Assembly: GCA_947258615.1 (NCBI GenBank)
Contig: CAMYIX010000043.1
Span: 72,973 to 136,972 of the forward strand
DNA length: 64,000 nt
Reading direction: 5' to 3'
Source of the DNA: an uncultured Ectothiorhodospiraceae bacterium
GTDB lineage: Bacteria; Pseudomonadota; Gammaproteobacteria; UBA9214
Shown here: in pieces, positions 32,194 through 64,000 of the stretch
Position numbering within the stretch: the first letter of the stretch is position 1
Layout of the letters: each line of letters starts with the position of its first letter
Translations under genes and position numbers: made by a program
The notes under the pieces: generated by a model
What the model was told of the DNA's origin: nothing
The model's database searches: none
The model's input: only the letters and a program-made list of their open reading frames with translations

Positions 32194-32203
32194 CTATTTA
32201 GGT

Positions 32204-34762: not shown

Positions 34763-34859
34763 TTATACTGTATATTCTTGATGATGCGAGCGTGCTTCGG
34801 TAGTTAACTTTATATATCGACAATATTTATCTAATTCTTTAATTTCTATTGGGTTATAG

Positions 34860-35102: not shown

Positions 35103-35107
35103 GAACA

Positions 35108-36322: not shown

Positions 36323-36326
36323 ATGG

Positions 36327-37397: not shown

Positions 37398-37514
37398 CTC
37401 GATGGTAGGCAGGTGGCGCTGTTTTGGTCTTTGAATCCCTGCGACTCAGGATTCCTGAGAATGGAACGCGAACTTAATTTAGGTTTGTAATCCTAACACA
37501 CTGATGTGTTGTCA

Positions 37515-38573
37515 TCATTGGCTATGGCTTAGTTTTATGTCCGAGAGCATGTCCTGTATCTTCATCACGGTATCGAGTTGGGACTTGAATGCATCGTAAC
37601 ACTCCGGATCAAAATGCAGGCCGCTTTGTTTTTCCATATAATCAATGGCTTCCTGCATCGACCAGGCATGTTTGTAGGGGCGTACCGAGACGAGGGCGTC
37701 ATAGACATCTGCGACTGCAACGATCCTTGCCGGCAAGGGAATTGCTTCGCCCTTCAGCCCTTGTGGATATCCTGAGCCGTTAAATTTTTCATGGTGACTG
37801 AGCGCGATCACTGCGCCCATTTGCAAAAACTTGGAAGGGCTGTCCTTGAGTATTTCGTGACCGATCAGCGTGTGTCGCTTCATTATCTCGAATTCTTCTG
37901 TGTTTAGTTTTCCCGGCTTCAGCAATATGTCGTCCCTGATCCCGATTTTCCCTATGTCGTGCATCGGTGCCGCCATCTCAATGACATCAGCTTCCTCGGA
38001 TGTGAACCCCATGTGTTCAGCTATAACCCGGGCAAACTTGGCCATCCGTACCACGTGGTTACCGGTTTCCTCGTCCCTGTATTCACCAGCCTTCGCGAGG
38101 CGGAGCAAGGTCTCCCTTTCGCGTAGACGAATCTCGCTGGTGGCTTCTGCAACCCGCCGTTCCAACCAGTGCGACCTGTCCTGGATGATCTTGTATTGCT
38201 GGTGCTGGGTCAGCAGGTTCCGGCAGCGGGCCCGGCACTCGTTATGGTCAACCGGCTTCATCAGGAAGTCGGTGGCACCTGCTTCAAGCGCCTGGTAACG
38301 GACATTTCTGTCTTCTACAGAGGTCACCATGATGATCGGGACGTGTTCGCAGGCCGGGTTTGCCCTGAACTTGAGGATGAACTCTATGCCATTCATTTCA
38401 GGCATTTTGTAATCGGTGAGTATCAGGTCCACCTGATTGCGTATTGACCAGTCCAGCGCCTCCATTGGGTTTGCAAATGACTGTACATCCGGCTCGCCTT
38501 CAATGGCGTTCACCAGGTGGACCAGTATTTGCCGACTGGTTAATTGGTCATCTACGACTACGATCGTGGCCAT
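37515..38573 (-). CDS. rpfG: RpfG-like response regulator: receiver + HD-GYP c-di-GMP phosphodiesterase
   Basis: REC domain (IVVVDDQ...DLILTDYKMPEMNG), HD motif (PMHDIGKIGI), and HHEKFNGSGYP HD-GYP signature. Start at MATIVVVDD. Confidence 0.8.
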   Translation of the reverse strand: MATIVVVDDQLTSRQILVHLVNAIEGEPDVQSFANPMEALDWSIRNQVDLILTDYKMPEMNGIEFILKFRANPACEHVPIIMVTSVEDRNVRYQALEAGATDFLMKPVDHNECRARCRNLLTQHQQYKIIQDRSHWLERRVAEATSEIRLRERETLLRLAKAGEYRDEETGNHVVRMAKFARVIAEHMGFTSEEADVIEMAAPMHDIGKIGIRDDILLKPGKLNTEEFEIMKRHTLIGHEILKDSPSKFLQMGAVIALSHHEKFNGSGYPQGLKGEAIPLPARIVAVADVYDALVSVRPYKHAWSMQEAIDYMEKQSGLHFDPECYDAFKSQLDTVMKIQDMLSDIKLSHSQ

Positions 38574-38896
38574 ATGGCTTCTCTGCGATATCTTGGATAT
38601 TTGAACTAAAACCACCGGAATCCACGCCTTCCGGACGCTATGGTCTCCGGCTTCTATGTAACTTGATTCACATAACTAACTGATATACATAGCCAAACAT
38701 GACTCTACATATGCACGAGTTTATATCGGCAGATGCTTGAACAAATTGAGACTTATTGACCCAGGCCGCCGGGCGGCGCCGGTTACGCCCGGCTTTTTCC
38801 GCAGGGGTAGGCCAGTGTCAGTGCTGGTGCCGATTACAGGCGTGATTGCCTGCCGGTGCGATGTGGTTAAAATACCGCACACTTTGCTAACAGGGA

Positions 38897-39127
38897 TTGA
38901 GAATGGGTACGGAATACAATGACCGGCCACGGTCACCTTCGTTAATCAAGGTGCTGGGCAGTGTACTGGCCAGTATGTTCGGTGTACAAAGTTCGCGCAG
39001 GCGGGAAGAGGATTTCGCGAACGGCAAGCCGTCCCATTACATTATCGTGGGCTTGTTGGTGACAGTAATTTTCATCCTGTCCATCTGGGGTGTGGTCCGG
39101 CTGGTGCTGAGTCTGGCAGGTGTCTAG
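38897..39127 (+). CDS. DUF2970-like small membrane protein
   Basis: 76 aa with a C-terminal TM helix (IIVGLLVTVIFILSIWGVVRLV). Weak call. Confidence 0.4.
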   Translation: MRMGTEYNDRPRSPSLIKVLGSVLASMFGVQSSRRREEDFANGKPSHYIIVGLLVTVIFILSIWGVVRLVLSLAGV

Positions 39128-41916: not shown

Positions 41917-42005
41917 GAGCGGTTCTTGTTGCGTGAAAAACATGCCCGACCCACGGCCGGGGCAGGAATTATAACTTAGCTGGCGGGATAATTCGGGGGT
42001 GGTGG

Positions 42006-47253: not shown

Positions 47254-47328
47254 TGGCGCTCCCTAGGGGACTCGAACCCCTGTTACCGGCGTGAGAGGCC
47301 AGTGTCCTAACCACTAGACGAAGGGAGC
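47254..47328 (-). tRNA. tRNA-Glu, anticodon read as CUC
   Basis: Minus strand GCTCCCTTCGTCTAGTGGTTAGGACACTGGCCTCTCACGCCGGTAACAGGGGTTCGAGTCCCCTAGGGAGCGCCA folds as a cloverleaf nearly identical to canonical bacterial tRNA-Glu (D-arm UCGUCUAG, T-arm GGGGUUCGAGUCCCCU, encoded CCA). The anticodon loop CU-CUC-AC gives CUC rather than the usual UUC. Confidence 0.8.
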
Positions 47329-52997: not shown

Positions 52998-53464
52998 GGA
53001 GCAGTGTCACTCAGGGGTGCCGTTGATGCAGTCGGAGCCACGGGCCGCGGGACTGCCCTGCAGGGAAAGCATTGCTCATCATGGATCATTCGCTGGCCGT
53101 TGATCGTCAATTATCAGTCGTTCCGGGACCTGCAGGTCGCCGTCAAGGTATGCAATTCCCTCATTAACGGGTACTGTCCGGGCGCCTGCGCGACGTCCGG
53201 CCACCCACTGAGAGATGGGCACAGCATTCATTATAAGTGACTGATAAATATATTAAAGCAGAATCAGTCCCAGAGACCTGCCGGGGTGCGCCCACGAACT
53301 ACCGACTGGCTTGCCGCATAAACCCTGCCCAAGGGGGCTGTTTCCTGGCATTTTCCTTCAGTCTGGCACGCAATTTGCCGTAACTAACTCAATAGACAAA
53401 AACCCCGGCCTGTACGTCATATATTTGACGGCCTCGCCGGTCCTGTTATGTTTCGAGGTAATGC

Positions 53465-53995
53465 ATGGATACGCCCTCAGAAGTCGCATCGCGCCAGTTC
53501 GAGGCCGCCGTCAAGGCGGGCGGTCTCGAGATCCTGAAGTTCATGATTCCGGGGATGCGCATGTGCGCACCGCTGGGGAACATGATCAAGGTGCTGCCGT
53601 TGATGGAGTTGCAGCCGGTTCCCGGTGGTCCCCGATACCTGCGTGGCCTGATGAATCTGCATGGCCGGAGCATCCCGGTCATCGACCTGGCCGCCCGCCT
53701 CGGTTACGGCGGTTATACCCGTTGCACCCTGGAGACACCGATTCTGCTGTGCGAACACGGGGGGCTGCAGACCGGCTTGATTGTTGACAAGGTCATCGGC
53801 GTTGAAACCCTGGAACAGGACGCCTGGCAACAGACGCCCGCCTTCGACAATGCCGGCCTGCTGCTGAACGGGACCGTGCAGACCCGGTTCGGGCCATCCC
53901 AGGTACTGTGCATGGAGCGGGTGATCGCAATCGACCTGGGTGGCTCGCATCATCCCGTGGCGCCCGGTGATGGTGATATCGAGGAATCCGCATGA
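53465..53995 (+). CDS. cheW: CheW-like coupling protein
   Basis: CheW domain (LRGLMNLHGRSIPVIDLAARLG...LIVDKVIGVETL); the stop overlaps the cheR start. Confidence 0.75.
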   Translation: MDTPSEVASRQFEAAVKAGGLEILKFMIPGMRMCAPLGNMIKVLPLMELQPVPGGPRYLRGLMNLHGRSIPVIDLAARLGYGGYTRCTLETPILLCEHGGLQTGLIVDKVIGVETLEQDAWQQTPAFDNAGLLLNGTVQTRFGPSQVLCMERVIAIDLGGSHHPVAPGDGDIEESA

Positions 53996-55515
53996 CGGGC
54001 ACAAGCTGCCTGTCTGATGAGTGCAGCGGCTGCCGGACGGTAACCTGGCAGCAGGAGACGGAGCTGTGCGATTACCTGCGTGTGCGTACCGGCATCGTCA
54101 TTCATGAGCACCAGCGTGATGACCTGCGTGCCACGCTGCAGAGCGCAGTAACCCGTTTCGGCTACGCGCAAGCCGACGACTATATCCAGCATCTCCACGA
54201 ATGCAGTCCCGACAACCAGGAGCTTGAATACCTGATTGCCAATGTCACCGTCGGCGAGAGTTATTTCTTTCGGGACAAGGGCCAGATGGAGTTCCTGCGC
54301 ACGGGGTGGTTGCCGCAGCTTGTGGCGCGAGGAAAGGGGCTTCCCGGTTCGGTTCGTGTCTGGAGCGCCGGCTGCTCGCACGGCCAGGAGATCTATTCCC
54401 TGGCAATCATGCTTCACGAAGGGGTTCCTGCACGCGCGCAGTGGAACCTGCAACTGCATGCGACCGATATCAATGCCGAGGCCCTGACCGTCGCTGTCGC
54501 GGCCCGCTACAGCTCATGGTCATTCAGATCCACGCCCGAGGCGATATGCAAGCGCTACTTCAGTCCTGTAAATAATGAATTCCAGTTGCGGGAAGAAATT
54601 AGCTCCATGGTGAATTTCTCCTACCTGAACCTGGTCGAGGATGAATTCCCGACTATCACCGGTGGTCTGCATTCAATGGACCTTATCCTGTGCCGTAATG
54701 TCTTTATCTACTTCGATGCCGCCACGGTCGAGGCCGTGATGAGAAAATTCGCCCGCTGCCTGGCACCCGGCGGCGTACTGATGCTGGGCGGGGCCGACAT
54801 GGTCAATGTCGATATCGAAGGCCTGGAAATGCAGCGGGCCGGGGGTGTTTTCTACTACCGCCGCACGGGCCTGGATCGGGTCGTCGATTTGTGGGCACCG
54901 GAGCCCGTGTACCTTGACAATAGCGGCGACGCGGATGATGTGCCGGCAGCGGTGTCCCGCGAAGAGGCATTAGCGGCCGATGCAACCCCGGAAAAGACCG
55001 AATCTATCGAAACGCTTGATCAGCTGGTTTCACAGCAACGCTGGAACGAGGTCCTGGTGGCGGCAGATGCCTGCCTTGACGGAGAAGGCGAAAGCGCCAC
55101 GGTGCTGTTGCACAAGGCCTGTGCCCTTGCCGGCCTGGGTCGGCTCGGGGAGGCAGCGCAATTGTCACAGCAGGCCGCGCTACTGGATCCGATGGACAAG
55201 CACGCACACTTTCTCCATGCGCTGGTGCTGATCGAGCAGGGTGATCCAGATTCCGCCGAGAGTGGTATGCGCAAGGCACTGTATATCGATCCCCGTTTTC
55301 TGGAGGCGCATCACCAGCTCGGCCTGCTGCAATTGCGGCAGGGCCAGCGTGACAAGGGTGTGAAAAGCCTGGTGAATGCGCTGGAAATCGCCGAGGCCGG
55401 TGATCCGGAATGCACCATTCACGGCGCCGCCGATATGACCTACCAGCGCATGGCTGAAGTCCTGCGCAAGGAAATCGATATCTATAGCAGTACCACTTCG
55501 GAGTCGTCAGCATGA
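53992..55515 (+). CDS. cheR: chemotaxis protein methyltransferase CheR with C-terminal TPR repeats (WspC-like)
   Basis: CheR SAM-binding region VRVWSAGCSHGQEIYSLAIML...ILCRNVFIYFD plus about 3 TPR repeats at the C-terminus; 507 aa. Confidence 0.8.
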   Translation: MTGTSCLSDECSGCRTVTWQQETELCDYLRVRTGIVIHEHQRDDLRATLQSAVTRFGYAQADDYIQHLHECSPDNQELEYLIANVTVGESYFFRDKGQMEFLRTGWLPQLVARGKGLPGSVRVWSAGCSHGQEIYSLAIMLHEGVPARAQWNLQLHATDINAEALTVAVAARYSSWSFRSTPEAICKRYFSPVNNEFQLREEISSMVNFSYLNLVEDEFPTITGGLHSMDLILCRNVFIYFDAATVEAVMRKFARCLAPGGVLMLGGADMVNVDIEGLEMQRAGGVFYYRRTGLDRVVDLWAPEPVYLDNSGDADDVPAAVSREEALAADATPEKTESIETLDQLVSQQRWNEVLVAADACLDGEGESATVLLHKACALAGLGRLGEAAQLSQQAALLDPMDKHAHFLHALVLIEQGDPDSAESGMRKALYIDPRFLEAHHQLGLLQLRQGQRDKGVKSLVNALEIAEAGDPECTIHGAADMTYQRMAEVLRKEIDIYSSTTSESSA

Positions 55516-56123
55516 GCGGCAAGCCATCAACAAAACCGGAAATTACGGAATCTTCCGAGCTGACAGGGCGCCAGCCTTCCTGGGTGCCGGCGTCCAGGCA
55601 GGCACGCAGGGTGATGCGTGAGCGGGCCGGGTTGTTGGCTCAGCCAGAGGTTGCGGATGAGACGGCGCTGGTACAGGAACCCTATATCCGCTTCCGCCTG
55701 GGTGTACAGGAGCACTACGGGATTCCCTATACGCATGTCGAAGAGATCATGGATGCCGGCAGCATTTGTCCTGTGCCCGGCGCCCCGGGATTCGTGCTGG
55801 GGGTGAGGAACCGCCGCGGCGAGATGCTGACGGTGCTGGACCTTAAGGAATTCTTCCGTCCGGCGCGTGACGAGGAATACGCAGAAGACGCACTCATCAT
55901 CGTGGTTAAGGCGCAGGGGATGCAGGCGGGGATACTGGTGAACGAGGTAATCGGCAATGACGAGTACGCGCTCAGCGAGCTCGACACGCCGTTGCCAGCC
56001 GGGGGGATCCGTGACCTGCGGCACATACGTGGTATCTACAGGGGTCGGGTCGCCCTGATGGACATGGAGTCATTGTTCAGCGACCCGATGCTGAATGTAA
56101 GTCAATCGGTCGGCGCGGGCTGA
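55512..56123 (+). CDS. CheW-like coupling protein (second copy, WspD-like)
   Basis: CheW domain (GVLAPGFVLGVRNRRGEMLTVLDL...ILVNEVIGNDE) with an N-terminal ~50-aa extension. Confidence 0.7.
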   Translation: MSGKPSTKPEITESSELTGRQPSWVPASRQARRVMRERAGLLAQPEVADETALVQEPYIRFRLGVQEHYGIPYTHVEEIMDAGSICPVPGAPGFVLGVRNRRGEMLTVLDLKEFFRPARDEEYAEDALIIVVKAQGMQAGILVNEVIGNDEYALSELDTPLPAGGIRDLRHIRGIYRGRVALMDMESLFSDPMLNVSQSVGAG

Positions 56124-56144
56124 CCCGGTATCAGGAGAGAAACG

Positions 56145-57695
56145 ATGTCAGCAAACATGTTGGAACAGGGTAGTGAACTGGTGCGGCACATGGGGATTGA
56201 CCATGCAGAGCAGCAGTCGCGCAAGGCATTCATCGATTTTGGCATGGAGGATGTCCAGCTGCTGCGCGAGTTGAAGCCGCTGATCCAGGAAAATGCCGAT
56301 TCCATCGTTGACGGCTTCTACAGCAATATCGAACGTTACGATGAACTGATTTCGATCATCCGCGATGCCGGTTCGTCGATCGAACGGCTAAAGGCGGCGC
56401 AGAAGCAATACCTGCTGGAATTGTTCGACGGTGATTACGGCACTGCCTACGTGGAACGCCGGCTGAAGATCGGGATCGTGCATAACAAGATCGGGCTGAC
56501 GCCGCGCTGGTACCTGGGGAGCTACAGCGTTTATTCGCAGCTGATCTACCCGCTGATCAACAAGAAATTCCGCTTCAACAGCGGCAAGGCGCTGAAGGCG
56601 GTCACGGCCGTGAACAAGATCCTCACCTTTGATGCGCAACTGGCCATCGACACCTATATCAATGCCGTCATGATGGACCTGAAAAGCGTTTCCCTGTCCA
56701 AGGATGATATCGAAAATACGGTAGTGAGATACCGCAATTTCATTGAAAAGGTCGCGACTGGTGACCTGTCCCAGAGCATAGAGGTCAACGGCGACGACGA
56801 CCTGGGTCAGCTGGGGGTACAGCTCAACACGATGACCCAAAGCCTTGCTGCCATGGCACGCCAGACCAGCGAGGCCAGCAACAGTATGTCTGTCACCCTG
56901 AACCAGATGCTGGGAACCGTCAGTACCCAGTCCTCCGGGGCCTCGGAACAGGCCGCGGCCGTCAACGAGGCGACCACCACGCTGGAGGAAATCCGGGCCA
57001 TATCCATGCAGACGAGGGAAAAGGCAGAGGCACTGGGTGCAACGGCAGAACGCACGCGCAAGGAGGGCGAAAAAGGCATGGAGTCCGTCGACCAGACAGT
57101 TTCCGGTATGCAATCTATTCGGGAAAAGGTGGAAGGTATCGCCGAGAACATCCTGGCACTGAGCGAGCAGACCCAGCAGATCGGTGAGATCACCGCTACC
57201 GTGAGTAATCTGGCGCACCAGCTGAAGATGCTGGCACTGAATGCCTCGATCGAAGCCGCCAAGGCAGGGGATGCCGGCAAGGGTTTCGCGGTGGTGGCGG
57301 CCGAGGTGAAGAACCTGGCAGAGCAGTCACAGCAGGCGACCGAACAGGTAAACTCCATTTTGCATGAGATCCAGCACGCCACCGACAAGGCAGTCATGGT
57401 GACGGAGGAGGGCAGCAAGGGTGTGGACGAAGGCATGAGCCTGGTCAACAAGGCAGGTACGACGGTACGCAAGCTGACCGAGGTGATCAAGGAAAGTGCC
57501 CTGGCGAGCCAGCAGATCGCCGCCTCGGTCCGTCAGGAAGCGACCGGGATCGACCAGATCACCACCGCAATGGGTGACATCAACGGGGCCACATCGCAGT
57601 TCGTCAGTGCGACCAAGCAGACGCGGGAAGCGGCCGAGGACCTGGGGCAGTTGGCTACGCAGCTGCGCGACAGTGCCAATGCCTACAAGCTCTAG
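56145..57695 (+). CDS. globin-coupled sensor methyl-accepting chemotaxis protein (HemAT-like; soluble, no TM segments)
   Basis: N-terminal sensor-globin (protoglobin) domain with proximal-His region YVERRLKIGIVHNKIGLTPRWYLGSYSVY. C-terminal MCP signalling domain with the conserved hairpin tip (ALNASIEAAKAGDAGKGFAVVAAEVKNLAEQS). Confidence 0.75.
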   Translation: MSANMLEQGSELVRHMGIDHAEQQSRKAFIDFGMEDVQLLRELKPLIQENADSIVDGFYSNIERYDELISIIRDAGSSIERLKAAQKQYLLELFDGDYGTAYVERRLKIGIVHNKIGLTPRWYLGSYSVYSQLIYPLINKKFRFNSGKALKAVTAVNKILTFDAQLAIDTYINAVMMDLKSVSLSKDDIENTVVRYRNFIEKVATGDLSQSIEVNGDDDLGQLGVQLNTMTQSLAAMARQTSEASNSMSVTLNQMLGTVSTQSSGASEQAAAVNEATTTLEEIRAISMQTREKAEALGATAERTRKEGEKGMESVDQTVSGMQSIREKVEGIAENILALSEQTQQIGEITATVSNLAHQLKMLALNASIEAAKAGDAGKGFAVVAAEVKNLAEQSQQATEQVNSILHEIQHATDKAVMVTEEGSKGVDEGMSLVNKAGTTVRKLTEVIKESALASQQIAASVRQEATGIDQITTAMGDINGATSQFVSATKQTREAAEDLGQLATQLRDSANAYKL

Positions 57696-57734
57696 CATGT
57701 CGCTGATACGAACAGGAAGGCGGCGGTACTGAGT

Positions 57735-60056
57735 ATGGATATCGATCCGAAACTGATGGAGCAGCTGCTTGAGACCTTCCGGGTGGAACTCGATGAACAG
57801 CTGCAGGCGATTACCGAGGGCCTGCTGCGGCTGGAGAAGCATCAGCAGGCGGCTGCGCGCCAGGAGATACTCAAGCGGATATTCCGTTCGGCACACAACA
57901 TCAAGGGTGCTGCGCGTGGTGTCGGCATCACCGGCGTGGCAGACATTGCCCATCAGCTGGAGTCGCTGCTCAGCACCCTGAAGGAAAGCAACAGCCCCCC
58001 GTCTGCCGGCGTGATCGACCTCTGTCTCGAGGCCATCGACAAGACCTGGCAGGCCATGAAGGCGTATGACACGGGTGCCGAGGCCGGTTTCGATATGCAG
58101 TCCCTGCTGGGTCGCCTGGAACAGGCGTCCTGCCAGCCATCCGCGCCCGAGACTGTGCCGGAACCGGGGTCGATGCAGGCCGCGGCCCCGGATATGCCCG
58201 AGTGGCCCGCCGAGACCGATTCCCGGATTGAGGCAGCTGAGGCCCGGTCTGACGCGCAGGCCACAGCGCAGGAAAAATCAGAATCAACGGCGCCTGCCAG
58301 TGGCCGGGAGCGCTCCCCGGGCGGGGTAGAGGTGGTCCGGGTGACGACCGACAAGCTGGATCGGGTGTCGGCCCTGGCCGAGGAGTTGCAGGTTGCAAAG
58401 ATCGGACTGCATGACCAGTTCAGCGGTGTCCAGATGATCATCGACAGCATCAATGCCCTGGCCCGGAGCTGGTCAAACACGAAATGTCCGAGCCCCCATA
58501 ACCAGGCGGCACCTGCGGATGAAACCAGGCAGCTGATCGTGAACAGCGGGGAAGCCCTGGCCGCAATCGGCAGGGCAGCGTCGCAGTTGCAGAAGAAGAT
58601 GCGTGCCACTCATAACCGCGTCGGTCTGGTGTCGCAATCCCTGCAGTCGGATGTACGCATGCTGCGCCTGGTACCCGTTGCCACCGTACTCAGACCACTG
58701 CTGCGACCGATGCGCGATCTGGCGCGCGAACTGGGGAAATCGGTCACTCTGCATATCTCGGGGGACGACGTAGAGATGGATCGGGTGGTTCTGGAAGGGG
58801 TGCGTGATCCGCTGGTACACCTGCTGCGCAATGCCATCGACCACGGCATCGAGGCACCGGAGAAGCGCTGCGTGTCGGGCAAGCAGGAGGAGGGCAATAT
58901 CTTCATCGCTGTGCATTGCGAAGGCGGGGAAATCATCATCAGCGTGCGCGATGACGGTATTGGTATCGATCCCCGGCACATTGGCGAGGTGGCGCTCAGG
59001 AAAAAACTCATCAAGCCGGCCGAACTGGAAGGCCTGAATGACAGGGAACTGCTTGACCTGGTCTTCCGTCCCGGGTTCTCCAGCAGGGAGTCGGTGAGTA
59101 CGGTATCCGGCCGCGGGGTCGGGCTGGACGTCGTGTATGAGAACCTCGCTGATCTGAAAGGCAGCGTGCAACTCGAATCCGAGCCTGGCCAGGGTGCCTG
59201 TTTTATCTTGCGCATGCCGCTCACCCTGACCACGGAACGCGGACTCCAGGTCCGCGTAGGCAGCCAGAAGTTGGTGATACCCAGTGTTTCGGTAGAACAT
59301 ATTCTCGACCTGCTCCCCGAGCAGATTGCCGAGGTGGCGGCCGGGCAGGTGATCCTGGTCAACAAGCGTCCGGTGCCATTGCGTGAACTGGGTGCCACCC
59401 TCGGTCTGGAGGGCGACCAGCTTGCCGATGACACGCGTCTGCCCGTCGTGGTGATTTCGAAGGGATGGCGTATGGTGGCCTTCGTGGTCAACGAGGTGGT
59501 CGGAGAGAGGGAAATCGTTATCAAGCCGTTGACGCGGCCGCTGGTTGCGGTCAGCAATATTACCGGCGCGACTCTGACTGGTGGCGGCGACATCATGATG
59601 GTGCTCAATGCCGGTGACCTGATCGAAACGGCGTTGAGCTCAACGGCCGGCACTTCGATTCTAGGTCCACACGGGGACGAGGAGCAGGTGGTCACGCCGC
59701 ACGTACTTATCGTGGATGACTCGCTGACAACCCGTACCCTGGAACGCAACATACTTGAATACCAGGGGTACGATGTCACCGTGGCCAACGACGGACAGCA
59801 GGCCTGGGAAACCCTGCAGGACAGGCGCTTTGACCTGGTGGTTTCGGACATCGAGATGCCGCGGATGAACGGCTTCGAGCTGACGGAACGCATTAAGCAA
59901 AGTGAGCACCTGGCCGATATACCGGTAATTATCGTTTCTTCACTTGCCGCTGACGCCGAGAAACAGCACGGCATCGAGGTAGGAGCGGACGCCTATATCG
60001 TCAAGGGCCAGTTCGAAACACACGCGCTGCTAGAGGTGGTGCGGCGCTTTATTTGA
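57735..60056 (+). CDS. cheA: CheA histidine kinase fused to a C-terminal receiver (WspE-like)
   Basis: Hpt (SAHNIKGAARGVG), HATPase (NAIDHGIE...GRGVGLD), CheW-like regulatory domain, then REC (VLIVDDSLTTR...DLVVSDIEMPRMNG). Confidence 0.85.
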   Translation: MDIDPKLMEQLLETFRVELDEQLQAITEGLLRLEKHQQAAARQEILKRIFRSAHNIKGAARGVGITGVADIAHQLESLLSTLKESNSPPSAGVIDLCLEAIDKTWQAMKAYDTGAEAGFDMQSLLGRLEQASCQPSAPETVPEPGSMQAAAPDMPEWPAETDSRIEAAEARSDAQATAQEKSESTAPASGRERSPGGVEVVRVTTDKLDRVSALAEELQVAKIGLHDQFSGVQMIIDSINALARSWSNTKCPSPHNQAAPADETRQLIVNSGEALAAIGRAASQLQKKMRATHNRVGLVSQSLQSDVRMLRLVPVATVLRPLLRPMRDLARELGKSVTLHISGDDVEMDRVVLEGVRDPLVHLLRNAIDHGIEAPEKRCVSGKQEEGNIFIAVHCEGGEIIISVRDDGIGIDPRHIGEVALRKKLIKPAELEGLNDRELLDLVFRPGFSSRESVSTVSGRGVGLDVVYENLADLKGSVQLESEPGQGACFILRMPLTLTTERGLQVRVGSQKLVIPSVSVEHILDLLPEQIAEVAAGQVILVNKRPVPLRELGATLGLEGDQLADDTRLPVVVISKGWRMVAFVVNEVVGEREIVIKPLTRPLVAVSNITGATLTGGGDIMMVLNAGDLIETALSSTAGTSILGPHGDEEQVVTPHVLIVDDSLTTRTLERNILEYQGYDVTVANDGQQAWETLQDRRFDLVVSDIEMPRMNGFELTERIKQSEHLADIPVIIVSSLAADAEKQHGIEVGADAYIVKGQFETHALLEVVRRFI

Positions 60057-60097
60057 TTGCCGTTGCGGCGACAGAAACACACCGGACCAGGTAGCCA

Positions 60098-61186
60098 ATG
60101 ATACGTGTGCTGATTGCAGATGATTCCGATACTGTCGCCCTGATACTCCGGTCGATACTGGAGTGCGAGCCCGATATCGAGGTCATCGGGCATGCCGGCA
60201 ATGGTGAAGAGGCGGTGCGGCTCACCCGGAAGCTCAAACCCGATCTGGTTACGATGGACATCCGTATGCCGGTCATGGACGGCCTCGAGGCAACCCGCCG
60301 CATCATGGAGATGCAGCCGACCCCGATCGTCGTGGTGTCCGGCAATGTCAATGACGAGGAGGCGAAGATCAGCTTTCGCGCGCTGGAGGAAGGGGCGCTG
60401 GCGGTACTTGAGAAACCCACAGGCCTGGGCATGCAGGATCCCCCGGGCACCTGCTGGGAGCTGGTCGATACGGTGCGCGCCATGGCCAGCCTGCGGGTGC
60501 TGCGCCGGGTCAATCGCCAGATTCACCGGGTAGCGCGGCCGGTCCCGCCAACGCAGATCAATGCAGCCCCTAAATCCCTGGAGTTGGTTGCCATCGGCTG
60601 TTCCACTGGTGGCCCGCAGGCACTTGAGACGATCCTGCCGGGGCTGCCGGCCGACTTCCCGGTTCCGGTGGTGATTGTCCAGCATATCTCGACCGGTTAC
60701 ATGAAAGGCCTGATCGAGTGGCTCCAGCAGCCGGCGCAGCTCGAACTCAGGCTGGCCTCTGACGGTGAGGCACTGCATCCCGGTGCGGTCTATTTTGCAC
60801 CGGACGAGCGGCATTTGAGAGTTGAACGACGCGGCTCGCAGCTGGTCTCTGCCCTCGTCGAGGGTGCGCCGGTCAACCGCTTCCGGCCTTCCAGTACCCC
60901 CTTGCTGGAGTCGATCGCGGCCAGCTGTCCGGGCAGCGCCCTGGGCGTGTTGCTGACCGGCATGGGTGTTGACGGGGCCGAAGGCCTGCTGTGTATGCGC
61001 AAGGCAGGCTGCCACACCATCGTTCAGGACAGGGAAAGTTCCGTGGTTTATGGCATGCCGGAAACGGCACTGGGCCTGGACGCCGTTGACCGCATCGTGC
61101 GTCTTGAAAACATGGCGGCCTACCTGACTGAAGTGGCAGCACGGCAAGCCGGTGCCATAGATGACCTCGGCAACCAATCGGCCTGA
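60098..61186 (+). CDS. cheB: protein-glutamate methylesterase CheB (REC + methylesterase)
   Basis: REC (VLIADDSD...DLVTMDIRMPVMDG) and the methylesterase catalytic region (AIGCSTGGPQAL...GMGVDGAEGL). Confidence 0.85.
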   Translation: MIRVLIADDSDTVALILRSILECEPDIEVIGHAGNGEEAVRLTRKLKPDLVTMDIRMPVMDGLEATRRIMEMQPTPIVVVSGNVNDEEAKISFRALEEGALAVLEKPTGLGMQDPPGTCWELVDTVRAMASLRVLRRVNRQIHRVARPVPPTQINAAPKSLELVAIGCSTGGPQALETILPGLPADFPVPVVIVQHISTGYMKGLIEWLQQPAQLELRLASDGEALHPGAVYFAPDERHLRVERRGSQLVSALVEGAPVNRFRPSSTPLLESIAASCPGSALGVLLTGMGVDGAEGLLCMRKAGCHTIVQDRESSVVYGMPETALGLDAVDRIVRLENMAAYLTEVAARQAGAIDDLGNQSA

Positions 61187-61247
61187 CACTGGATATTTTT
61201 AAAGCAAGCAGCGCCGGGAACAATGGCCCGGCAGCAGGAGAAATCAG

Positions 61248-62549
61248 ATGAAAGCACTGGTAATCGAAGACGGCAAGATCCATCGGCAGATGATCGGTCT
61301 GGTGCTGGAGGCCCTCGATGTCGAGGTGCATCTGGCACAGACGGCCGAGGAGGGTCTGGCGGCCCTGGCCAACGAGACATTCGACCTGATCTCTCTCGAT
61401 CTGCACCTGCCGGATATGGACGGACTGGAATTCTGCCGTCGCCTGCGTGCTGACGAGGCGACACATCTGTTGCCGATCGTGCTGCTGACCTCGGAGGATG
61501 CCGATGCGACCCTGAAGATGGCCTACGGGGCCGGTGTCACCGAGGTGATGCGCAAGACCAGTATCGAAGAATTACAGCAGTCTTTCAGCTTCCTGGTGAA
61601 TCGGCTGCGCAGGGTCTATAGCGGCCGGGTGCTGTACGTGGAGGACAGTCCGACCACGGCGCAGTTGACTATCAGCATCCTCAAGGATATGGGCCTGGTA
61701 GTGGACCATTACCTGAGTGGTGAGGATGCCCTGGAGTCGTTCTGGCGGTGTGATTATGACGTGGTGATTACCGATGTCGTGCTGGAAGGCGAGATGAGCG
61801 GATTGAATGTGGTGCGCGGCATACGTTCTGCCGGTAGCGACAGGCGGGAAATCCCGGTGCTGGCCGTCTCGGGTAACGAGGACATGTCGCGCCGTGTCGA
61901 GATCCTGCGTTCGGGTGCCAACGACTATATCGAGAAGCCCATTGTCGAGGACGAGTTCAAGGCCCGACTGGGTAACCTCATCATCAACAAGCAACTGTTT
62001 GATCAAGTCAGGTCCCAGCAGGACGAGTTGCGTACCCTGGCCGTCACCGACCAGTTGACCGGTCTCTATAACAGGACCTACCTGGCGGAGACTGCCCAGA
62101 AATATGTCAGCAGCGCCATCCGTCACCATGAATCACTGAGCCTGCTGATGCTGGACCTGGACGAGTTCAAGGACATCAATGATACCCAGGGCCACGCGGC
62201 AGGTGACAAGGTACTTGCGGCAATCGGCGACATGCTGAAATCGCGTTGCCGGGATGAGGACGTAGTGGCCCGCTTCGGCGGCGAGGAGTTCATTGTATTG
62301 TTGCCGCGCTGTGACCTGGAGAATGCGATTTACAAGGCCGAGCATCTCTGCCGGTTTATCCGTGAATTGCAGCCTGCGGGACTGACGATCAGTGCCAGCC
62401 TGGGAGTGTCCAGTATCCACGAGGGTGGGCGCCATATCGACTTCGAAAAACTGCTCAAGGAGGCCGACACGGCCCTCTACGCGGCCAAGCGCAATGGCCG
62501 TGACCGCGTGGAAGTCTTCAGCGAGGATCGCCTGGAGGCCAGCGCCTGA
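61248..62549 (+). CDS. PleD-like response regulator diguanylate cyclase (REC-REC-GGDEF)
   Basis: Two receiver domains (each with an acidic pocket and phospho-Asp position) followed by GGDEF with active-site GGEEF and an RxxD-like I-site region. Confidence 0.8.
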   Translation: MKALVIEDGKIHRQMIGLVLEALDVEVHLAQTAEEGLAALANETFDLISLDLHLPDMDGLEFCRRLRADEATHLLPIVLLTSEDADATLKMAYGAGVTEVMRKTSIEELQQSFSFLVNRLRRVYSGRVLYVEDSPTTAQLTISILKDMGLVVDHYLSGEDALESFWRCDYDVVITDVVLEGEMSGLNVVRGIRSAGSDRREIPVLAVSGNEDMSRRVEILRSGANDYIEKPIVEDEFKARLGNLIINKQLFDQVRSQQDELRTLAVTDQLTGLYNRTYLAETAQKYVSSAIRHHESLSLLMLDLDEFKDINDTQGHAAGDKVLAAIGDMLKSRCRDEDVVARFGGEEFIVLLPRCDLENAIYKAEHLCRFIRELQPAGLTISASLGVSSIHEGGRHIDFEKLLKEADTALYAAKRNGRDRVEVFSEDRLEASA

Positions 62550-62638: not shown

Positions 62639-62977
62639 ATGCCACATGACCCCTCACCGCCGCGTTGCCCCTTGCCGTCGCAACCCGACGACACAACCCT
62701 GACCGTCATCAATCTCAACCCGCCACAAAGCATCGGCGATTACCGCGAGGCCATGACCCTGGCCGACGGCGTCGCGCAAAGGCACCTGGGTGATGCCATG
62801 CTGCTGGCCTGGTACGACCGGGACCGGGATTTCGAATCACCACAGCATGCCAGTGAATGTCACCTGGACAGTGCCGTGCCGGGGTATGTGGATTACGGTC
62901 TGAGTCACGGCGCCACCCTCAAGGTGATCTTCGAGCAGGGACGTTTCGTGTTCTTCTACAGGCCGGTTGAGCTGTAG
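62639..62977 (+). CDS. hypothetical protein
   Basis: 112-aa ORF in an otherwise empty interval; no recognisable motif. Confidence 0.3.
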   Translation: MPHDPSPPRCPLPSQPDDTTLTVINLNPPQSIGDYREAMTLADGVAQRHLGDAMLLAWYDRDRDFESPQHASECHLDSAVPGYVDYGLSHGATLKVIFEQGRFVFFYRPVEL

Positions 62978-63014: not shown

Positions 63015-63722
63015 TCAGGCGATGTTGAGGTGTTTCTCGCTATCGAGGGGATCAGCGTCCGACTGCAGCGGTTCCGCTTCCAGCCAGTCGATCAGGTCCT
63101 GCCAGTGCTCCCGGTCCACGCGCGTAAGGTTGGCCTTCATGTCATGGATGCCCATGCCCTCGGCTGCCGCCTGCACGTAGTTCTGCGTATCACGCAGGCA
63201 GGCCACCGGCGACATGTCCCTGTCTGAGAGGAACGTCATCAAGGTCTGAAACGCACGCGTCTTTCGCCGTACCCGGTTGGCCACGACGGCAATTGAGGCC
63301 CCGGGGGCATGCACGCGCACCTCCTTGCCGAGATCCTGGAGGAAGTCCGAAGTCACGCAGGAATCGATGCTTGACGGCAGGATGGGTACGATGATGGCCC
63401 AGGTGTCGCGCAGGATCTCGATCAGCTCCATGCGTTTCAGGGAAGCCGGCGTGTCCAGGATGAGGCGCTGCGTTCCGGGCGGCACGCGCAGCTGGAACGA
63501 GCGCGTGATATTTTCATCCGGCGGGTGTGCGGCCGCGACGCCGTAGATCCCTGCGAGGTTCTCGGGTCGCTGCGCAAGCCAGCGGGTGGAGGAATCCTGC
63601 GGATCGTAATCGAACAGGGCGGTCGGATAACCGTGTGAGGCGTAGTAGCTGGCCAGGTTGGTGGACAGGGTCGTCTTGCCGCAGCCCCCCTTGCTGTTGA
63701 TGACAACGATCTTTCGGATCAT
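63015..63722 (-). CDS. ParA/MinD-family P-loop ATPase (orphan)
   Basis: Deviant Walker A VINSKGGCGKTTLSTNLA at the N-terminus when started at MIRKIVVINSKGG; the longer upstream extension is rejected. Confidence 0.7.
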   Translation of the reverse strand: MIRKIVVINSKGGCGKTTLSTNLASYYASHGYPTALFDYDPQDSSTRWLAQRPENLAGIYGVAAAHPPDENITRSFQLRVPPGTQRLILDTPASLKRMELIEILRDTWAIIVPILPSSIDSCVTSDFLQDLGKEVRVHAPGASIAVVANRVRRKTRAFQTLMTFLSDRDMSPVACLRDTQNYVQAAAEGMGIHDMKANLTRVDREHWQDLIDWLEAEPLQSDADPLDSEKHLNIA

Positions 63723-64000
63723 CTGGATTCCTGATGTACTTAAACCCGTTTCTAGGGCGTGAGAATGGGGGGAGTTTACTACGGGTGGCGATATTTTTCT
63801 GCTGCCTTTATCCCGTTCCATGAAATAACTCGGCAGCGGTCGGTTCCATTGGCCGATTGTCGGCATGTAGCACAGCTGGCGTATGATAGCTTATCGACTC
63901 GCGTCAGTCGGCCGGCCAGCCGGTGTAACCCTCAGGTATGCCTGGCGTGCTCGTATCATGTTGTTAATCAAGATTATTGGCCTGGAGCAGGAAATGACAA

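What the first reader, a model, noticed from the sequence alone, without database searches (positions are those of the whole stretch)
53465..62549. Wsp-like chemosensory pathway whose receptor is a soluble heme globin-coupled sensor and whose output is c-di-GMP synthesis
The operon cheW, cheR(TPR), cheW, MCP, cheA-REC, cheB, REC-REC-GGDEF mirrors the Wsp architecture (WspC has TPRs, WspE is CheA-REC, WspR is a REC-GGDEF). The only receptor, however, is a cytoplasmic HemAT-type globin-MCP with no TM region. This predicts gas (O2/NO/CO) sensing by heme transmitted through a complete chemotaxis-like adaptation system to a diguanylate cyclase, rather than to the flagellar motor. That coupling is at most rarely characterised.
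Basis: partly seen in the sequence, partly recalled or inferred. Interest (0 to 1): 0.7.

Follow-up and report, generated by a model that had tools for sequence, protein, structure and literature searches.

The report
Globin-receptor Wsp-like c-di-GMP signalling operon
A seven-gene operon encodes a chemotaxis-style signalling machine whose only receptor is a soluble heme (globin) gas sensor and whose output enzyme makes the biofilm messenger c-di-GMP; the same design recurs in many bacteria that live in oxygen gradients, and I found no experimental study of it.

Summary
Window 53465-62549 (+) holds seven tightly packed genes: cheW, cheR-TPR, cheW, Protoglobin-HAMP-MCP, cheA-REC, cheB and REC-REC-GGDEF.

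- **Receptor:** it has no hydrophobic segment. It keeps the HemAT proximal His (H113) and distal Tyr (Y59). Its model superposes on the HemAT sensor domain (rmsd 0.9 Å).
- **Cyclase:** it has GGEEF, an RxxD I-site and two receiver domains with intact acceptor Asp residues.
- **Context:** no other MCP, che gene, stand-alone CheY or flagellar gene lies in the 64 kb.

The system is not a one-off. Every globin-MCP with at least 41% globin identity that I retrieved, where flanking sequence was present, sits in the same cheW-cheR-cheW-MCP-cheA/REC-cheB core (Ectothiorhodospiraceae, Gallionella, Magnetococcus, Methylospira, Paraburkholderia, Spongiibacter). In 17 of 21 complete clusters a c-di-GMP enzyme gene lies within 3.5 kb, against 1 of 19 orphan-globin control loci. 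More distant HemAT-like globin-MCPs are orphans.

It works like Wsp but is not a Wsp orthologue. Identity to a true wsp cluster is 28-35%, the receptor is soluble, and the cyclase is closer to PleD.

I found no paper describing or testing this coupling. Heme binding, the ligand, and CheA-to-cyclase phosphotransfer are all inferred.

The parts
53465..53995 (+). cheW1, coupling protein (176 aa)
   Evidence: Pfam CheW 2.1e-21. It overlaps cheR by 4 nt. It holds the same position in 30+ related clusters.
53992..55515 (+). cheR with C-terminal TPR domain (507 aa), receptor methyltransferase of the WspC/FrzF type
   Evidence: Pfam CheR 1.6e-46 plus TPR_8, TPR_2 and TPR_16 at aa 346-470. It is 28% identical to the CheR-TPR of a Ralstonia wsp cluster.
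55512..56123 (+). cheW2, second coupling protein (203 aa, with an N-terminal extension of about 55 aa)
   Evidence: Pfam CheW 2.1e-24 at aa 58-191.
56145..57695 (+). Soluble globin-coupled chemoreceptor (516 aa): sensor globin, HAMP, 40-heptad-length signalling hairpin
   Evidence: Pfam Protoglobin, HAMP and MCPsignal. It matches the HemAT-Bs sensor 1or4 at 2.9e-24. No TM segment. The hairpin tip EAAKAGDAGKGF lies at aa 370-381, about 140 aa from the HAMP end and from the C-terminus. The cytoplasmic part is 28 aa longer than Tar/Tsr and colinear with a WspA-type receptor.
56202..56666 (+). Sensor globin domain (aa 20-174) with distal Tyr59 (nt 56319-56321) and proximal His113 (nt 56481-56483)
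   Evidence: In the alignment to HemAT-Bs, Y70 corresponds to Y59 and H123 to H113. Both are conserved in 120 of 121 homologues. The AF2 model has pLDDT 89.1 and fits 1or4_B at rmsd 0.9 Å over 149 columns, with TM 0.91 normalised to the target.
56745..56849 (+). HAMP domain (aa 201-235) between globin and signalling domain
   Evidence: Pfam HAMP 3.9e-7, 30.7 bits against a cut-off of 25. Clustered globin-MCPs mostly have 186-198 aa between the globin end and the hairpin tip. Most orphan HemAT-like ones have about 148 aa, so they lack this insert.
57735..60056 (+). cheA-REC hybrid kinase (773 aa): Hpt (His54), Pro/Ala/Glu-rich linker with no P2 domain, kinase, CheW-like P5, receiver (Asp705)
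   Evidence: Pfam Hpt, HATPase_c, CheW and Response_reg, with no P2 hit. It is full-length colinear with a Ralstonia WspE-type protein at 33% identity. Residues located.
60098..61186 (+). cheB methylesterase with receiver (362 aa); Asp54, Ser169, His196, Asp292
   Evidence: Pfam CheB_methylest 5.9e-56 plus REC. NCBIfam CheB subfamily scores 350 bits against a cut-off of 342. Residues located.
61248..62549 (+). REC-REC-GGDEF diguanylate cyclase (433 aa): acceptor Asp51 and Asp176, I-site RDED (aa 335-338), active site GGEEF (aa 344-348)
   Evidence: Pfam. Best solved relative is PleD 1w25 at 1.1e-50. All listed residues are invariant in 12 of 12 cluster-linked orthologues down to 47% identity.
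53425..53452 (+). Sigma-70-like promoter match just upstream of cheW1 (weak evidence)
   Evidence: TTGACG, 16 nt spacer, TATGTT with an upstream TG; 9 of 12 matches. The number of such sites in the region does not exceed shuffled sequence.
62639..62977 (+). DUF5619 gene downstream of the cyclase (membership uncertain)
   Evidence: Pfam DUF5619 2.5e-24. It is conserved after the cyclase only in the close relatives L002-L004, L012 and L039. No informative solved relative.
63015..63866 (-). ParA-family ATPase gene, convergent with the operon (membership uncertain; possible array-positioning factor)
   Evidence: Pfam CbiA/ParA. NCBIfam ParA_partition 3.7e-28, below its cut-off. It is conserved here only in close relatives. 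A small ParA gene lies inside the cluster (cheR-parA-cheW2) in 5 of 36 related loci.

Best explanation
This is an operon for a dedicated, cytoplasmic, chemotaxis-like pathway that converts a heme-sensed gas signal into c-di-GMP synthesis. Oxygen is the most likely signal; NO and CO are not excluded.

Proposed mechanism:
1. The soluble globin-HAMP-MCP binds heme through His113. The ligand is stabilised by Tyr59.
2. Ligand binding changes the HAMP and signalling-hairpin conformation. This changes autophosphorylation of the CheA-REC kinase, which is held on the receptor by the two CheW proteins.
3. Phosphoryl groups pass from CheA His54 to the REC-REC-GGDEF cyclase (Asp51 and/or Asp176). The cyclase then assembles into an active oligomer and makes c-di-GMP. 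The RxxD I-site limits this by product inhibition.
4. Phosphoryl groups also pass to CheB. CheB and the TPR-bearing CheR reset receptor methylation, so the pathway reports changes in gas level rather than absolute level. CheA's own receiver acts as a sink or regulator.

Shown here: gene content and order, domain architecture, catalytic and ligand residues, solubility, the globin fold, and conserved linkage of this receptor clade to this che core and to c-di-GMP enzymes. Inferred: heme binding, ligand identity, the sign of the response, CheA-to-cyclase phosphotransfer, and adaptation.
For: - **Architecture:** domains and tight operon spacing.
- **Sensor:** 2.9e-24 match to the HemAT-Bs sensor, with the proximal His and distal Tyr aligned and conserved in 120 of 121 homologues. 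A confident model (pLDDT 89) fits HemAT at rmsd 0.9 Å.
- **Location:** no TM segment.
- **Cyclase:** GGEEF, RxxD and both receiver Asp, acidic-pocket, Thr/Ser and Lys positions are invariant in 12 of 12 orthologues located after cheB.
- **No motor link:** no CheY, no P2 domain in CheA, and no flagellar or other che gene in 64 kb.
- **Comparative evidence for the core:** every globin-MCP with at least 41% globin identity whose flanks are visible sits in the same cheW-cheR-cheW-MCP-cheA/REC-cheB core, with variant gene order in L037 and L054. Those with 36% or less are orphans.
- **Comparative evidence for the output:** 17 of 21 complete clusters have a GGDEF, EAL or HD-GYP gene within 3.5 kb. 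After collapsing receptors more than 70% identical, that is 7 of 10 lineages. Orphan-globin control loci give 1 of 19 (Fisher p = 5e-4).
- **Same architecture elsewhere:** Paraburkholderia caballeronis and Spongiibacter.
- **Adaptation:** a conserved Glu/Gln pair at aa 268-269 lies 108 residues before the hairpin tip. That is where a Tsr methylation site would fall after a 14-residue shift in a receptor 40 heptads long.
- **Precedent:** chemosensory pathways controlling a receiver-cyclase are established for Wsp and for Halomonas HtChe2 (PMC8846402; PMC5907407; bioRxiv 10.1101/2024.04.09.588698).
Against: - Nothing here is biochemical. Heme binding, the ligand and phosphotransfer are untested.
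- The HemAT Thr95 position, implicated in O2 recognition, is Ala85 here. Among homologues it is Thr in 57 of 121 and Ala in 38 of 121, so ligand selectivity may differ.
- The cyclase family is not exclusive to this cluster. Relatives at 43-49% identity stand alone in Natronospira and two other genomes, so such cyclases can be served by other kinases.
- Three of 10 lineages have no c-di-GMP gene nearby. They carry a REC-PAS-histidine kinase and/or a CheY instead.
- Some relatives carry a CheY plus a CheC/CheX phosphatase, so a motility link is possible in part of the family.
- Flagellar chemotaxis pathways of some gammaproteobacteria (for example Pseudomonas) also use 40H-length receptors (my own knowledge). 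Receptor length therefore does not prove insulation from a flagellar pathway encoded elsewhere.
Confidence: 0.7

Rival explanations
1. It is an ordinary HemAT-type aerotaxis pathway. The globin-MCP and CheA control flagellar rotation through a CheY encoded elsewhere, and the cyclase is only a neighbour or a side branch.
For: All experimentally validated globin-MCPs mediate aerotaxis: HemAT-Bs, HemAT-Hs, GCS-Bh and Atu1027 (PMC13401364). Some related clusters include a CheY and a CheC/CheX phosphatase. Only 64 kb of the genome is visible.
Against: There is no CheY in the operon. CheA lacks P2 and carries its own receiver. CheR carries TPRs. This is the Wsp-type architecture, not a flagellar one. 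No flagellar or motility gene lies in the window. This receptor clade is tied to c-di-GMP enzymes far more often than control loci are. HemAT-like receptors from the more distant clade are orphans that feed general pathways.
Confidence: 0.1
2. The pathway works as proposed, but the physiological signal is not O2. It is NO, CO or heme iron redox state, or the globin has lost gas sensing.
For: The HemAT-Bs globin also binds CO and NO (PMC13401364). The HemAT Thr95 position is Ala in the window protein and variable in the family. In some relatives a NIT (nitrate/nitrite) MCP sits beside the globin-MCP, hinting at nitrogen-oxide physiology.
Against: The distal Tyr (B10), which stabilises bound O2 in HemAT and DosC-type sensors, is conserved in 120 of 121 homologues. 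Named carriers are mostly oxygen-gradient organisms: Gallionella, Mariprofundus, Magnetococcus and Methylospira.
Confidence: 0.25
3. The cyclase is phosphorylated by a different kinase. The che core signals through CheA's own receiver or an unlinked regulator, so the synteny reflects co-regulation and not a direct phosphorelay.
For: Close cyclase relatives exist without any che cluster. The same window holds a hybrid histidine kinase with an Hpt domain and a REC-HD-GYP protein 15-20 kb away. Output modules next to the core vary between lineages.
Against: The gap after cheB is 61 nt on the same strand. The same cyclase orthologue follows cheB in two receptor lineages (under 70% MCP identity), with Spongiibacter as a further instance. 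Wsp and HtChe2 give direct precedent for CheA-REC to receiver-cyclase signalling. The distant REC-HD-GYP in the window is not an orthologue of the cluster-linked ones: 32-40% identity, against about 57% among themselves.
Confidence: 0.1

Closest known systems
Wsp system of Pseudomonas (WspA-F, WspR) and its betaproteobacterial orthologues (here a Ralstonia wenshanensis cluster, L094)
   Same: The parts list is the same: two CheW, CheR with TPRs, CheA-REC hybrid without P2, CheB and a receiver-cyclase. The order W-R-W-A-B-cyclase is the same. The receptor signalling domain has the same length: it is colinear over 312 residues.
   Different: - The receptor is soluble with a heme globin sensor. 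WspA has two TM segments and a periplasmic domain.
- The receptor gene is fourth, not first.
- The cyclase has an extra N-terminal receiver and matches PleD better than WspR.
- Proteins are only 28-35% identical.
- The kinase core is about as close to flagellar CheA (34%) as to WspE-type kinases (37%).
HtChe2 pathway of Halomonas titanicae KHS3 (Wsp-like; receptor Htc10 binds purines)
   Same: It is a chemosensory cluster with a 40H receptor, CheA-REC, CheR-TPR and a multi-receiver cyclase, and it controls biofilm traits (PMC5907407; bioRxiv 10.1101/2024.04.09.588698).
   Different: HtChe2 has a different gene order (MCP, CheB, CheR, CheA, CheY, DGC, CheW, CheW). Its receptor is a transmembrane double-Cache type. 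Its cyclase is Hpt-REC-REC-GGDEF and the cluster includes a CheY.
HemAT of Bacillus subtilis and other validated globin-MCPs
   Same: The sensor globin fold, proximal His and distal Tyr are shared, as is fusion to an MCP signalling domain in a soluble protein.
   Different: HemAT feeds the flagellar chemotaxis pathway and is not encoded in a dedicated che cluster. The window receptor has a HAMP insert, has Ala at the Thr95 position, and belongs to a clade always embedded in a CheA-REC cluster.
One-component globin-coupled diguanylate cyclases (E. coli DosC, Bordetella BpeGReg, HemDGC)
   Same: The input-output logic is the same: a heme globin senses O2 and c-di-GMP synthesis responds (PMC8846402).
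   Different: In those proteins globin and GGDEF are fused, with no kinase, no amplification and no methylation-based adaptation. Here six proteins lie between sensor and cyclase.
PleD of Caulobacter crescentus
   Same: The REC-REC-GGDEF architecture, GGEEF and the RxxD I-site are shared. PleD is the best solved-structure match (1.1e-50).
   Different: The PleD family score is below NCBIfam's cut-off: 254.7 against 474 bits. PleD's second receiver has Asn where the window protein has acceptor Asp176 (alignment). PleD is fed by classical histidine kinases, not by a CheA.
Aer2/Che2 of Pseudomonas aeruginosa and cytoplasmic chemoreceptor arrays (Rhodobacter sphaeroides CheOp3 with the ParA-like PpfA)
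   Same: These also use soluble heme-binding or cytoplasmic receptors with their own dedicated che genes. A ParA-family ATPase encoded with the che genes is seen in 5 of 36 related clusters and next to the window operon. The comparison itself rests on my own knowledge and on PMC13401364.
   Different: Aer2 uses PAS-heme, not globin, and its pathway has no cyclase output. No array imaging or ParA function is known for the present family.

Membership tests
Wsp system (sensu stricto) | Gene content: MCP, two CheW, CheR-TPR, CheA-REC hybrid, CheB, receiver-diguanylate cyclase | tested here: met
   All seven are present. They match one to one with a Ralstonia wsp cluster.
Wsp system (sensu stricto) | Membrane-bound receptor with a periplasmic domain (WspA type), encoded first in the operon | tested here: not met
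   The receptor has no TM segment (KD19 maximum 1.08) and a cytoplasmic globin sensor, and its gene is fourth. The Ralstonia WspA-type protein shows two TM peaks above 2.4.
Wsp system (sensu stricto) | WspR-type output: a single receiver followed by GGDEF | tested here: not met
   The output has two receivers. PleD (1e-50) outranks WspR (1.6e-36) in the PDB search. REC2-GGDEF is nevertheless colinear with a WspR-type protein at 33% identity.
Wsp system (sensu stricto) | Orthology of the core proteins to WspB-F | tested here: inconclusive
   Identity to the Ralstonia cluster is 28-35%. The kinase core is 36.5-37% identical to WspE-type kinases, 34.3% to Ralstonia flagellar CheA, and 40% to an unrelated Rhizobium CheA. 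No reference phylogeny is available.
ACF class of chemosensory systems (Wuichet-Zhulin / MiST classification) | Assignment by class-specific CheA, CheW, CheB and CheR profile models | not testable with these tools
   The MiST class models are not available here. The architecture (CheA-REC, CheR-TPR, non-motility output, 40H-length receptor) fits what reviews describe for ACF systems that control c-di-GMP (PMC8846402).
Globin-coupled sensor (HemAT-type sensor globin) | Sensor globin fold | tested here: met
   Pfam Protoglobin 1.7e-43. The AF2 model (pLDDT 89.1) fits 1or4_B at rmsd 0.9 Å and TM 0.91. The next matches are the AfGcHK and Geobacter GCS globins.
Globin-coupled sensor (HemAT-type sensor globin) | Proximal His (F8) and distal Tyr (B10) | tested here: met
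   H113 aligns with HemAT H123 and Y59 with Y70. Both are conserved in 120 of 121 homologues.
Globin-coupled sensor (HemAT-type sensor globin) | HemAT Thr95, which hydrogen-bonds bound O2 | tested here: not met
   The equivalent residue is Ala85. The family shows Thr in 57, Ala in 38, Lys in 10 and Ser in 9 of 121.
Globin-coupled sensor (HemAT-type sensor globin) | Binds heme and reversibly binds O2 | not testable with these tools
   This needs purified protein and UV-visible or resonance Raman spectroscopy.
Methyl-accepting chemotaxis protein, 40-heptad length class | Conserved hairpin tip, symmetric arms of about 140 residues, methylatable Glu/Gln pairs | tested here: met
   The tip lies at aa 370-381 with 140 aa to each end. 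The domain is 28 aa longer than Tar/Tsr, the same length as CtpM, and colinear with a WspA-type receptor. Conserved E/Q pairs lie at 268-269, 456-457 and 464-465. Actual methylation is untested.
PleD family response regulator | NCBIfam NF007135 score above its cut-off; second receiver is a non-phosphorylatable adaptor | tested here: not met
   The score is 254.7 bits against a cut-off of 474. The second receiver keeps the Asp, acidic pocket, Ser and Lys-Pro in 12 of 12 orthologues.
Active diguanylate cyclase (GGDEF) | GG(D/E)EF active site and RxxD inhibitory site five residues upstream | tested here: met
   GGEEF at aa 344-348 and RDED at aa 335-338 are invariant in 12 of 12 orthologues.
HtChe2-type cluster (Halomonas) | Gene order MCP-CheB-CheR-CheA-CheY-DGC-CheW-CheW with an Hpt-REC-REC-GGDEF cyclase | tested here: not met
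   The order differs. There is no CheY and no Hpt on the cyclase.

The most novel reading that the evidence does not exclude
This family is a general, adapting oxygen-change detector for c-di-GMP in bacteria that live at oxic-anoxic interfaces. A soluble globin receptor forms a cytoplasmic array, positioned in some lineages by a cluster-encoded ParA ATPase. Through CheR/CheB adaptation the array turns rises or falls in O2 into transient c-di-GMP pulses. Lineages wire the same sensor core to a cyclase, to an HD-GYP phosphodiesterase, or to both as a push-pull pair. This would decide when cells attach, make stalks or biofilm, or swim off. It would also be the first Wsp-type pathway whose input is predictable from sequence and can be titrated.
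Probability: 0.3. Interest if true: 0.75.

Novelty: new variant of a known kind. Interest (0 to 1): 0.6.

Why it matters
Chemosensory pathways that control c-di-GMP are known, but their inputs are obscure. WspA's stimulus is still debated. A 2024 preprint (bioRxiv 10.1101/2024.04.09.588698) describes the purine-binding Htc10 as, to its authors' knowledge, the first receptor of this kind with a defined ligand.

Here the input can be predicted from sequence. It is a diffusible gas sensed by heme, which can be dosed precisely, removed quickly and followed by spectroscopy. That would make long-open questions about Wsp-type systems testable. Do they adapt? What does the CheA receiver do? How does phosphorylation activate the cyclase?

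The finding also adds a third route from O2 to c-di-GMP, beside the one-component globin-GGDEF enzymes and two-component relays. This route has amplification and memory.

The family occurs in iron oxidisers (Gallionella, Mariprofundus), magnetotactic cocci, a micro-aerobic methanotroph and sulfur-cycle gammaproteobacteria. It could therefore help explain how these organisms hold position and switch between swimming and attachment in oxygen gradients.

Cultured carriers with the full window-type architecture exist: Paraburkholderia caballeronis, and probably Pelomonas sp. KK5. Genetics should therefore be feasible.

Tried and rejected
- **Reverse synteny test from the cyclase side.** Homologues of the cyclase at 43-49% identity are not always next to a che cluster: Natronospira (L090), L092 and L093 are orphans, while Spongiibacter (L091) has the full cluster. 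I therefore dropped the claim that the cyclase family is dedicated to this pathway.
- **A partner phosphodiesterase in the window.** I asked whether the REC-HD-GYP at 37515-38615(-) is the displaced partner seen next to other clusters. It is only 32-40% identical to those, which are about 57% identical to each other. Rejected.
- **Placing the kinase with Wsp by similarity.** The core is about as close to flagellar CheA as to WspE-type kinases, and its best plasmid hit is an unrelated Rhizobium cluster. Uninformative.
- **Comparing receiver domains across output modules.** I looked for a shared CheA-docking receiver. Each group is its own family at 23-34% identity to the others. Uninformative.
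- **Strict methylation-site consensus.** The regular expression found no exact match. Only conserved E/Q pairs were found.
- **Rfam scan of the window.** It found only a tRNA and no c-di-GMP riboswitch.
- **Promoter and terminator scan.** Counts do not exceed shuffled sequence. One weak promoter-like site precedes cheW1.
- **DUF5619 against solved structures.** Nothing significant.
- **Exact look-ups to identify the source record.** The window's receptor and cyclase are not on record with contig data. The organism is inferred from the nearest loci, which are uncultured Ectothiorhodospiraceae MAGs at 89-95% identity.
- **Corallococcus globin-PAS MCP cluster.** I considered it as prior art. It has a different globin family, a different gene order and no cyclase. 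Not the same system.
- **Reviews not held.** Three that might mention this architecture could not be read: the Wuichet-Zhulin classification, the Gumerov review and the Collins cytoplasmic-receptor review.

Full report
**1. What is in the sequence**

Window 53465-62549 carries seven co-directional ORFs on the + strand. Their spacing is -4, -4, 21, 39, 41 and 61 nt, the packing expected of one operon.

Pfam assigns the following:
- CheW (176 aa).
- CheR plus C-terminal TPR repeats (507 aa).
- CheW (203 aa).
- A 516-aa protein with Protoglobin (aa 20-174, 1.7e-43), HAMP (aa 201-235) and MCPsignal (aa 300-481).
- A 773-aa Hpt, HATPase, CheW-like, REC hybrid CheA with no P2 hit.
- REC plus CheB methylesterase (362 aa).
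- REC-REC-GGDEF (433 aa).

I scanned all six frames of the whole 64 kb with the cluster's own domains. This found no other MCP, CheW, CheA, CheR or CheB, and no single-domain receiver in or next to the operon.

The upstream genes are pcnB, folK, a deoxynucleoside kinase, panB, panC, panD and a divergent EamA transporter. Downstream lie a DUF5619 gene and a convergent ParA-family ATPase gene.

The nearest public loci are uncultured Ectothiorhodospiraceae and gammaproteobacterial MAGs with 89-95% identical receptors.

**2. The receptor**

- **Solubility.** The highest 19-residue Kyte-Doolittle mean is 1.08. A genuine WspA-type receptor analysed the same way has two peaks above 2.4.
- **Heme ligands.** The N-terminal domain matches the crystallised HemAT-Bs sensor domain (1or4) at 2.9e-24. 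In that alignment HemAT His123 (proximal heme ligand) corresponds to His113 and Tyr70 (distal) to Tyr59. Both are conserved in 120 of 121 aligned homologues.
- **A difference from HemAT.** The position of HemAT Thr95 is Ala85 here and is variable in the family.
- **Fold.** An AlphaFold model of residues 15-200, built on 22 homologues, has mean pLDDT 89.1. Its best PDB matches are HemAT-Bs (rmsd 0.9 Å over 149 columns, TM 0.91 normalised to the target), then the Anaeromyxobacter GcHK and Geobacter GCS sensor globins.
- **Signalling domain.** The hairpin tip (EAAKAGDAGKGF, aa 370-381) lies about 140 residues from both the end of HAMP and the C-terminus. Alignments to Tar/Tsr-type receptors need 28 extra residues. 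Alignments to CtpM and to a WspA-type receptor are colinear. This is the 40-heptad length class.
- **Adaptation sites.** There is no C-terminal CheR-docking pentapeptide. Conserved Glu/Gln pairs lie at 268-269, 456-457 and 464-465. The first is where a Tsr methylation site would fall after a 14-residue shift.

**3. The other components**

CheA has the Hpt histidine (His54), a Pro/Ala/Glu-rich linker in place of P2, and a receiver with Asp705. CheB has Asp54 and the Ser169, His196, Asp292 triad.

The cyclase has GGEEF (aa 344-348) and an RDED I-site five residues upstream. Both receivers carry a complete acidic pocket, acceptor Asp (Asp51, Asp176), Thr/Ser and Lys. All of these are invariant in the 12 orthologues that follow cheB in related clusters, down to 47% identity.

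Its best solved relative is PleD (1.1e-50), ahead of WspR (1.6e-36). It falls below NCBIfam's PleD cut-off. Where PleD's second receiver has Asn, this protein has Asp176 (alignment).

**4. It is a family, not a singleton**

The receptor has many full-length homologues with the same three domains. Sources include Gallionella, Rhodocyclaceae, Mariprofundus, Magnetococcus, Magnetofaba, Candidatus Methylospira, Endothiovibrio, Paraburkholderia caballeronis, Pelomonas and others.

Gene neighbourhoods in four named genomes all show the same cheW, cheR(TPR), cheW, globin-MCP, cheA-REC, cheB core.

I then scanned metagenome contigs with a profile of the globin domain only. I classified every ORF in 90 loci with the window's own domains. 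The result is a clean split.
- All globin-MCPs with at least 41% globin identity whose flanks are visible lie in that core. Gene order is rearranged in L037 and L054.
- All those with 36% or less are orphans without che genes, or are globin-GGDEF fusions.
- The clustered clade also has about 45 extra residues (the HAMP insert) between globin and signalling domain. Most orphans lack this.

**5. Outputs**

There are 21 clusters with both boundaries and at least 1.5 kb of flank. Of these, 17 have a GGDEF, EAL or HD-GYP gene within 3.5 kb. After collapsing receptors more than 70% identical, that is 7 of 10 lineages. Orphan-globin control loci from the same scan give 1 of 19 (Fisher p = 5e-4).

Three recurrent output modules appear:
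- REC-REC-GGDEF directly after cheB. This is seen in the window group, in a Burkholderiales-like group that includes Paraburkholderia caballeronis, and in Spongiibacter.
- An orthologous REC-HD-GYP phosphodiesterase directly before cheW1, sometimes together with the downstream cyclase.
- A CheY plus a CheC/CheX phosphatase plus a GGDEF protein after cheB.

The three lineages without a c-di-GMP gene carry a REC-PAS-histidine kinase upstream and/or a CheY.

The association with c-di-GMP turnover is therefore a property of the receptor clade, and the particular enzyme varies.

The reverse does not hold. Cyclase relatives at 43-49% identity also occur alone.

**6. Relation to Wsp**

A bona fide wsp-type cluster from a Ralstonia megaplasmid was retrieved for comparison. 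Its order is MCP, CheW, CheR, CheW, CheA-REC, CheB, REC-GGDEF.

The window's genes are in the same order except that the receptor sits fourth. CheA aligns end to end with the WspE-type kinase at 33%. The receptor's cytoplasmic part is colinear over 312 residues. The cyclase's REC2-GGDEF is colinear with the WspR-type protein at 33%.

Overall identities are only 28-35%. The kinase core is about as similar to flagellar CheA (34%) as to WspE-type kinases (37%). So the system works like Wsp and shares its architecture, but it should not be filed as a Wsp orthologue. Assignment to the ACF class is likely but could not be tested here.

The Halomonas HtChe2 pathway, the other studied Wsp-like system, has a different gene order, a Cache receptor and an Hpt-bearing cyclase.

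**7. Literature**

Ten full-text searches combined globin or protoglobin or HemAT with chemosensory, Wsp, CheA, CheW, GGDEF, HD-GYP and ACF terms. They returned no paper that describes this coupling.

- A 2022 census of c-di-GMP sensory inputs treats globin sensors only as one-component enzymes and treats Wsp as the chemosensory example.
- A July 2026 aerotaxis review lists HemAT-Bs, HemAT-Hs, GCS-Bh and Atu1027 as the validated globin-MCPs, all for aerotaxis.
- The Methylospira genome paper mentions its Protoglobin MCP only as an aerotaxis candidate.
- The 2024 Halomonas preprint states that, to its authors' knowledge, Htc10 is the first receptor controlling a cyclase with a known ligand.

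Three relevant reviews were not available. The library covers only open-access papers, so an earlier bioinformatic mention cannot be excluded.

**8. Mechanism and confidence**

The best-supported reading has four steps:
1. Heme-globin gas sensing in the cytoplasm.
2. HAMP and hairpin control of CheA-REC.
3. Phosphotransfer to the REC-REC-GGDEF cyclase, which makes c-di-GMP under I-site feedback.
4. CheR-TPR and CheB methylation feedback, giving adaptation.

Architecture, residues, fold, solubility and conserved linkage are shown. Heme binding, ligand identity (O2 favoured by the invariant distal Tyr and by the ecology of carriers), the sign of the response, the phosphotransfer route and adaptation are inferred.

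I put 0.7 on the pathway as a whole. The rivals are:
- A motility-only role: 0.1.
- A different gas or redox signal: 0.25. This is compatible with the main pathway.
- A cyclase fed by another kinase: 0.1.

**9. Verdict**

This is a new variant of a known kind: a Wsp-style chemosensory c-di-GMP pathway with a soluble heme-globin input. I show it to be a conserved and phylogenetically broad family that, as far as I could find, is uncharacterised. Interest is 0.6. No new principle is involved, but the system offers a well-defined stimulus for a class of pathways whose inputs are mostly unknown. It is also probably relevant to the physiology of oxygen-gradient bacteria.

Noticed in passing
window 63015-63866 (-); L018 6813-7526, L019 2789-3520, L028 7064-7729, L043 1710-2456, L054 3205-3864: A small ParA-family partition ATPase gene sits inside the globin-che cluster, between cheR and the second cheW, in 5 of 36 related loci. 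L017 and L042 also carry it, but cheR is not visible there. In the window and its close relatives a ParA-like gene lies convergent just downstream of the operon. This recalls the ParA-like PpfA that partitions cytoplasmic chemoreceptor arrays in Rhodobacter (my own knowledge). It would fit a soluble receptor array.
   Followed up: partly
L022 11885-14056; also L049 and L028: In some related clusters a second, NIT-domain (nitrate/nitrite-sensing) HAMP-MCP is encoded right after the globin-MCP. This suggests joint sensing of oxygen and nitrogen oxides by one pathway.
   Followed up: partly
L001 4232-5284, L014-L016, L018-L022, L024, L028, L049 (upstream of cheW1 or inside the cluster); L029, L030, L032, L033, L038: An orthologous REC-HD-GYP phosphodiesterase (about 57% identity among members) is encoded at the start of many clusters. 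A second, longer HD-domain protein without a receiver occupies that place in the Burkholderiales-like group, together with the downstream cyclase. This could be push-pull control of c-di-GMP.
   Followed up: partly
L027 5491-7305, L035 5588-7378, L050 5576-7405: Three clusters without a nearby c-di-GMP enzyme have a REC-PAS-HisKA-HATPase protein directly upstream of cheW1. This suggests that in these lineages the pathway feeds a further phosphorelay.
   Followed up: partly
window ~31000-39000: A low-GC island (GC 0.47-0.55 against about 0.60 elsewhere) holds an enoyl-CoA hydratase, a hybrid histidine kinase with REC and Hpt (32204-34762, -), a ketoacyl synthase, a cyclopropane-synthase-like methyltransferase and a REC-HD-GYP protein (37515-38615, -). 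It is possibly a horizontally acquired lipid-modification and signalling module.
   Followed up: partly
window 39167-41943 (-): Valyl-tRNA synthetase appears split into two ORFs that overlap by 4 nt: 40858-41943 (N-terminal part) and 39167-40861 (C-terminal part). This is a frameshift, a pseudogene or an assembly error.
   Followed up: no
homologues P0054, P0076, P0097, P0107, P0110 and others: A subset of the clustered globin-MCPs is about 630-645 aa long and carries a C-terminal CZB (chemoreceptor zinc-binding, PF13682) domain. This second sensory module is absent from the window protein.
   Followed up: no
window 62639-62977 (+): A DUF5619 protein of unknown function follows the cyclase, but only in the window and its close relatives (L002-L004, L012, L039). 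It has no informative solved relative.
   Followed up: partly
L001 12969-13361; L008 14572-14985: A small ORF follows cheB in the Gallionella and Magnetococcus clusters. It is 130 and 137 aa, with a weak Hpt match in Gallionella and no family match in Magnetococcus. It is possibly an extra phosphotransfer protein.
   Followed up: partly
window 47257-47328 (-): A tRNA gene (Rfam 63 bits) lies between the RDD-family gene and pcnB. It was the only Rfam hit in the window.
   Followed up: no
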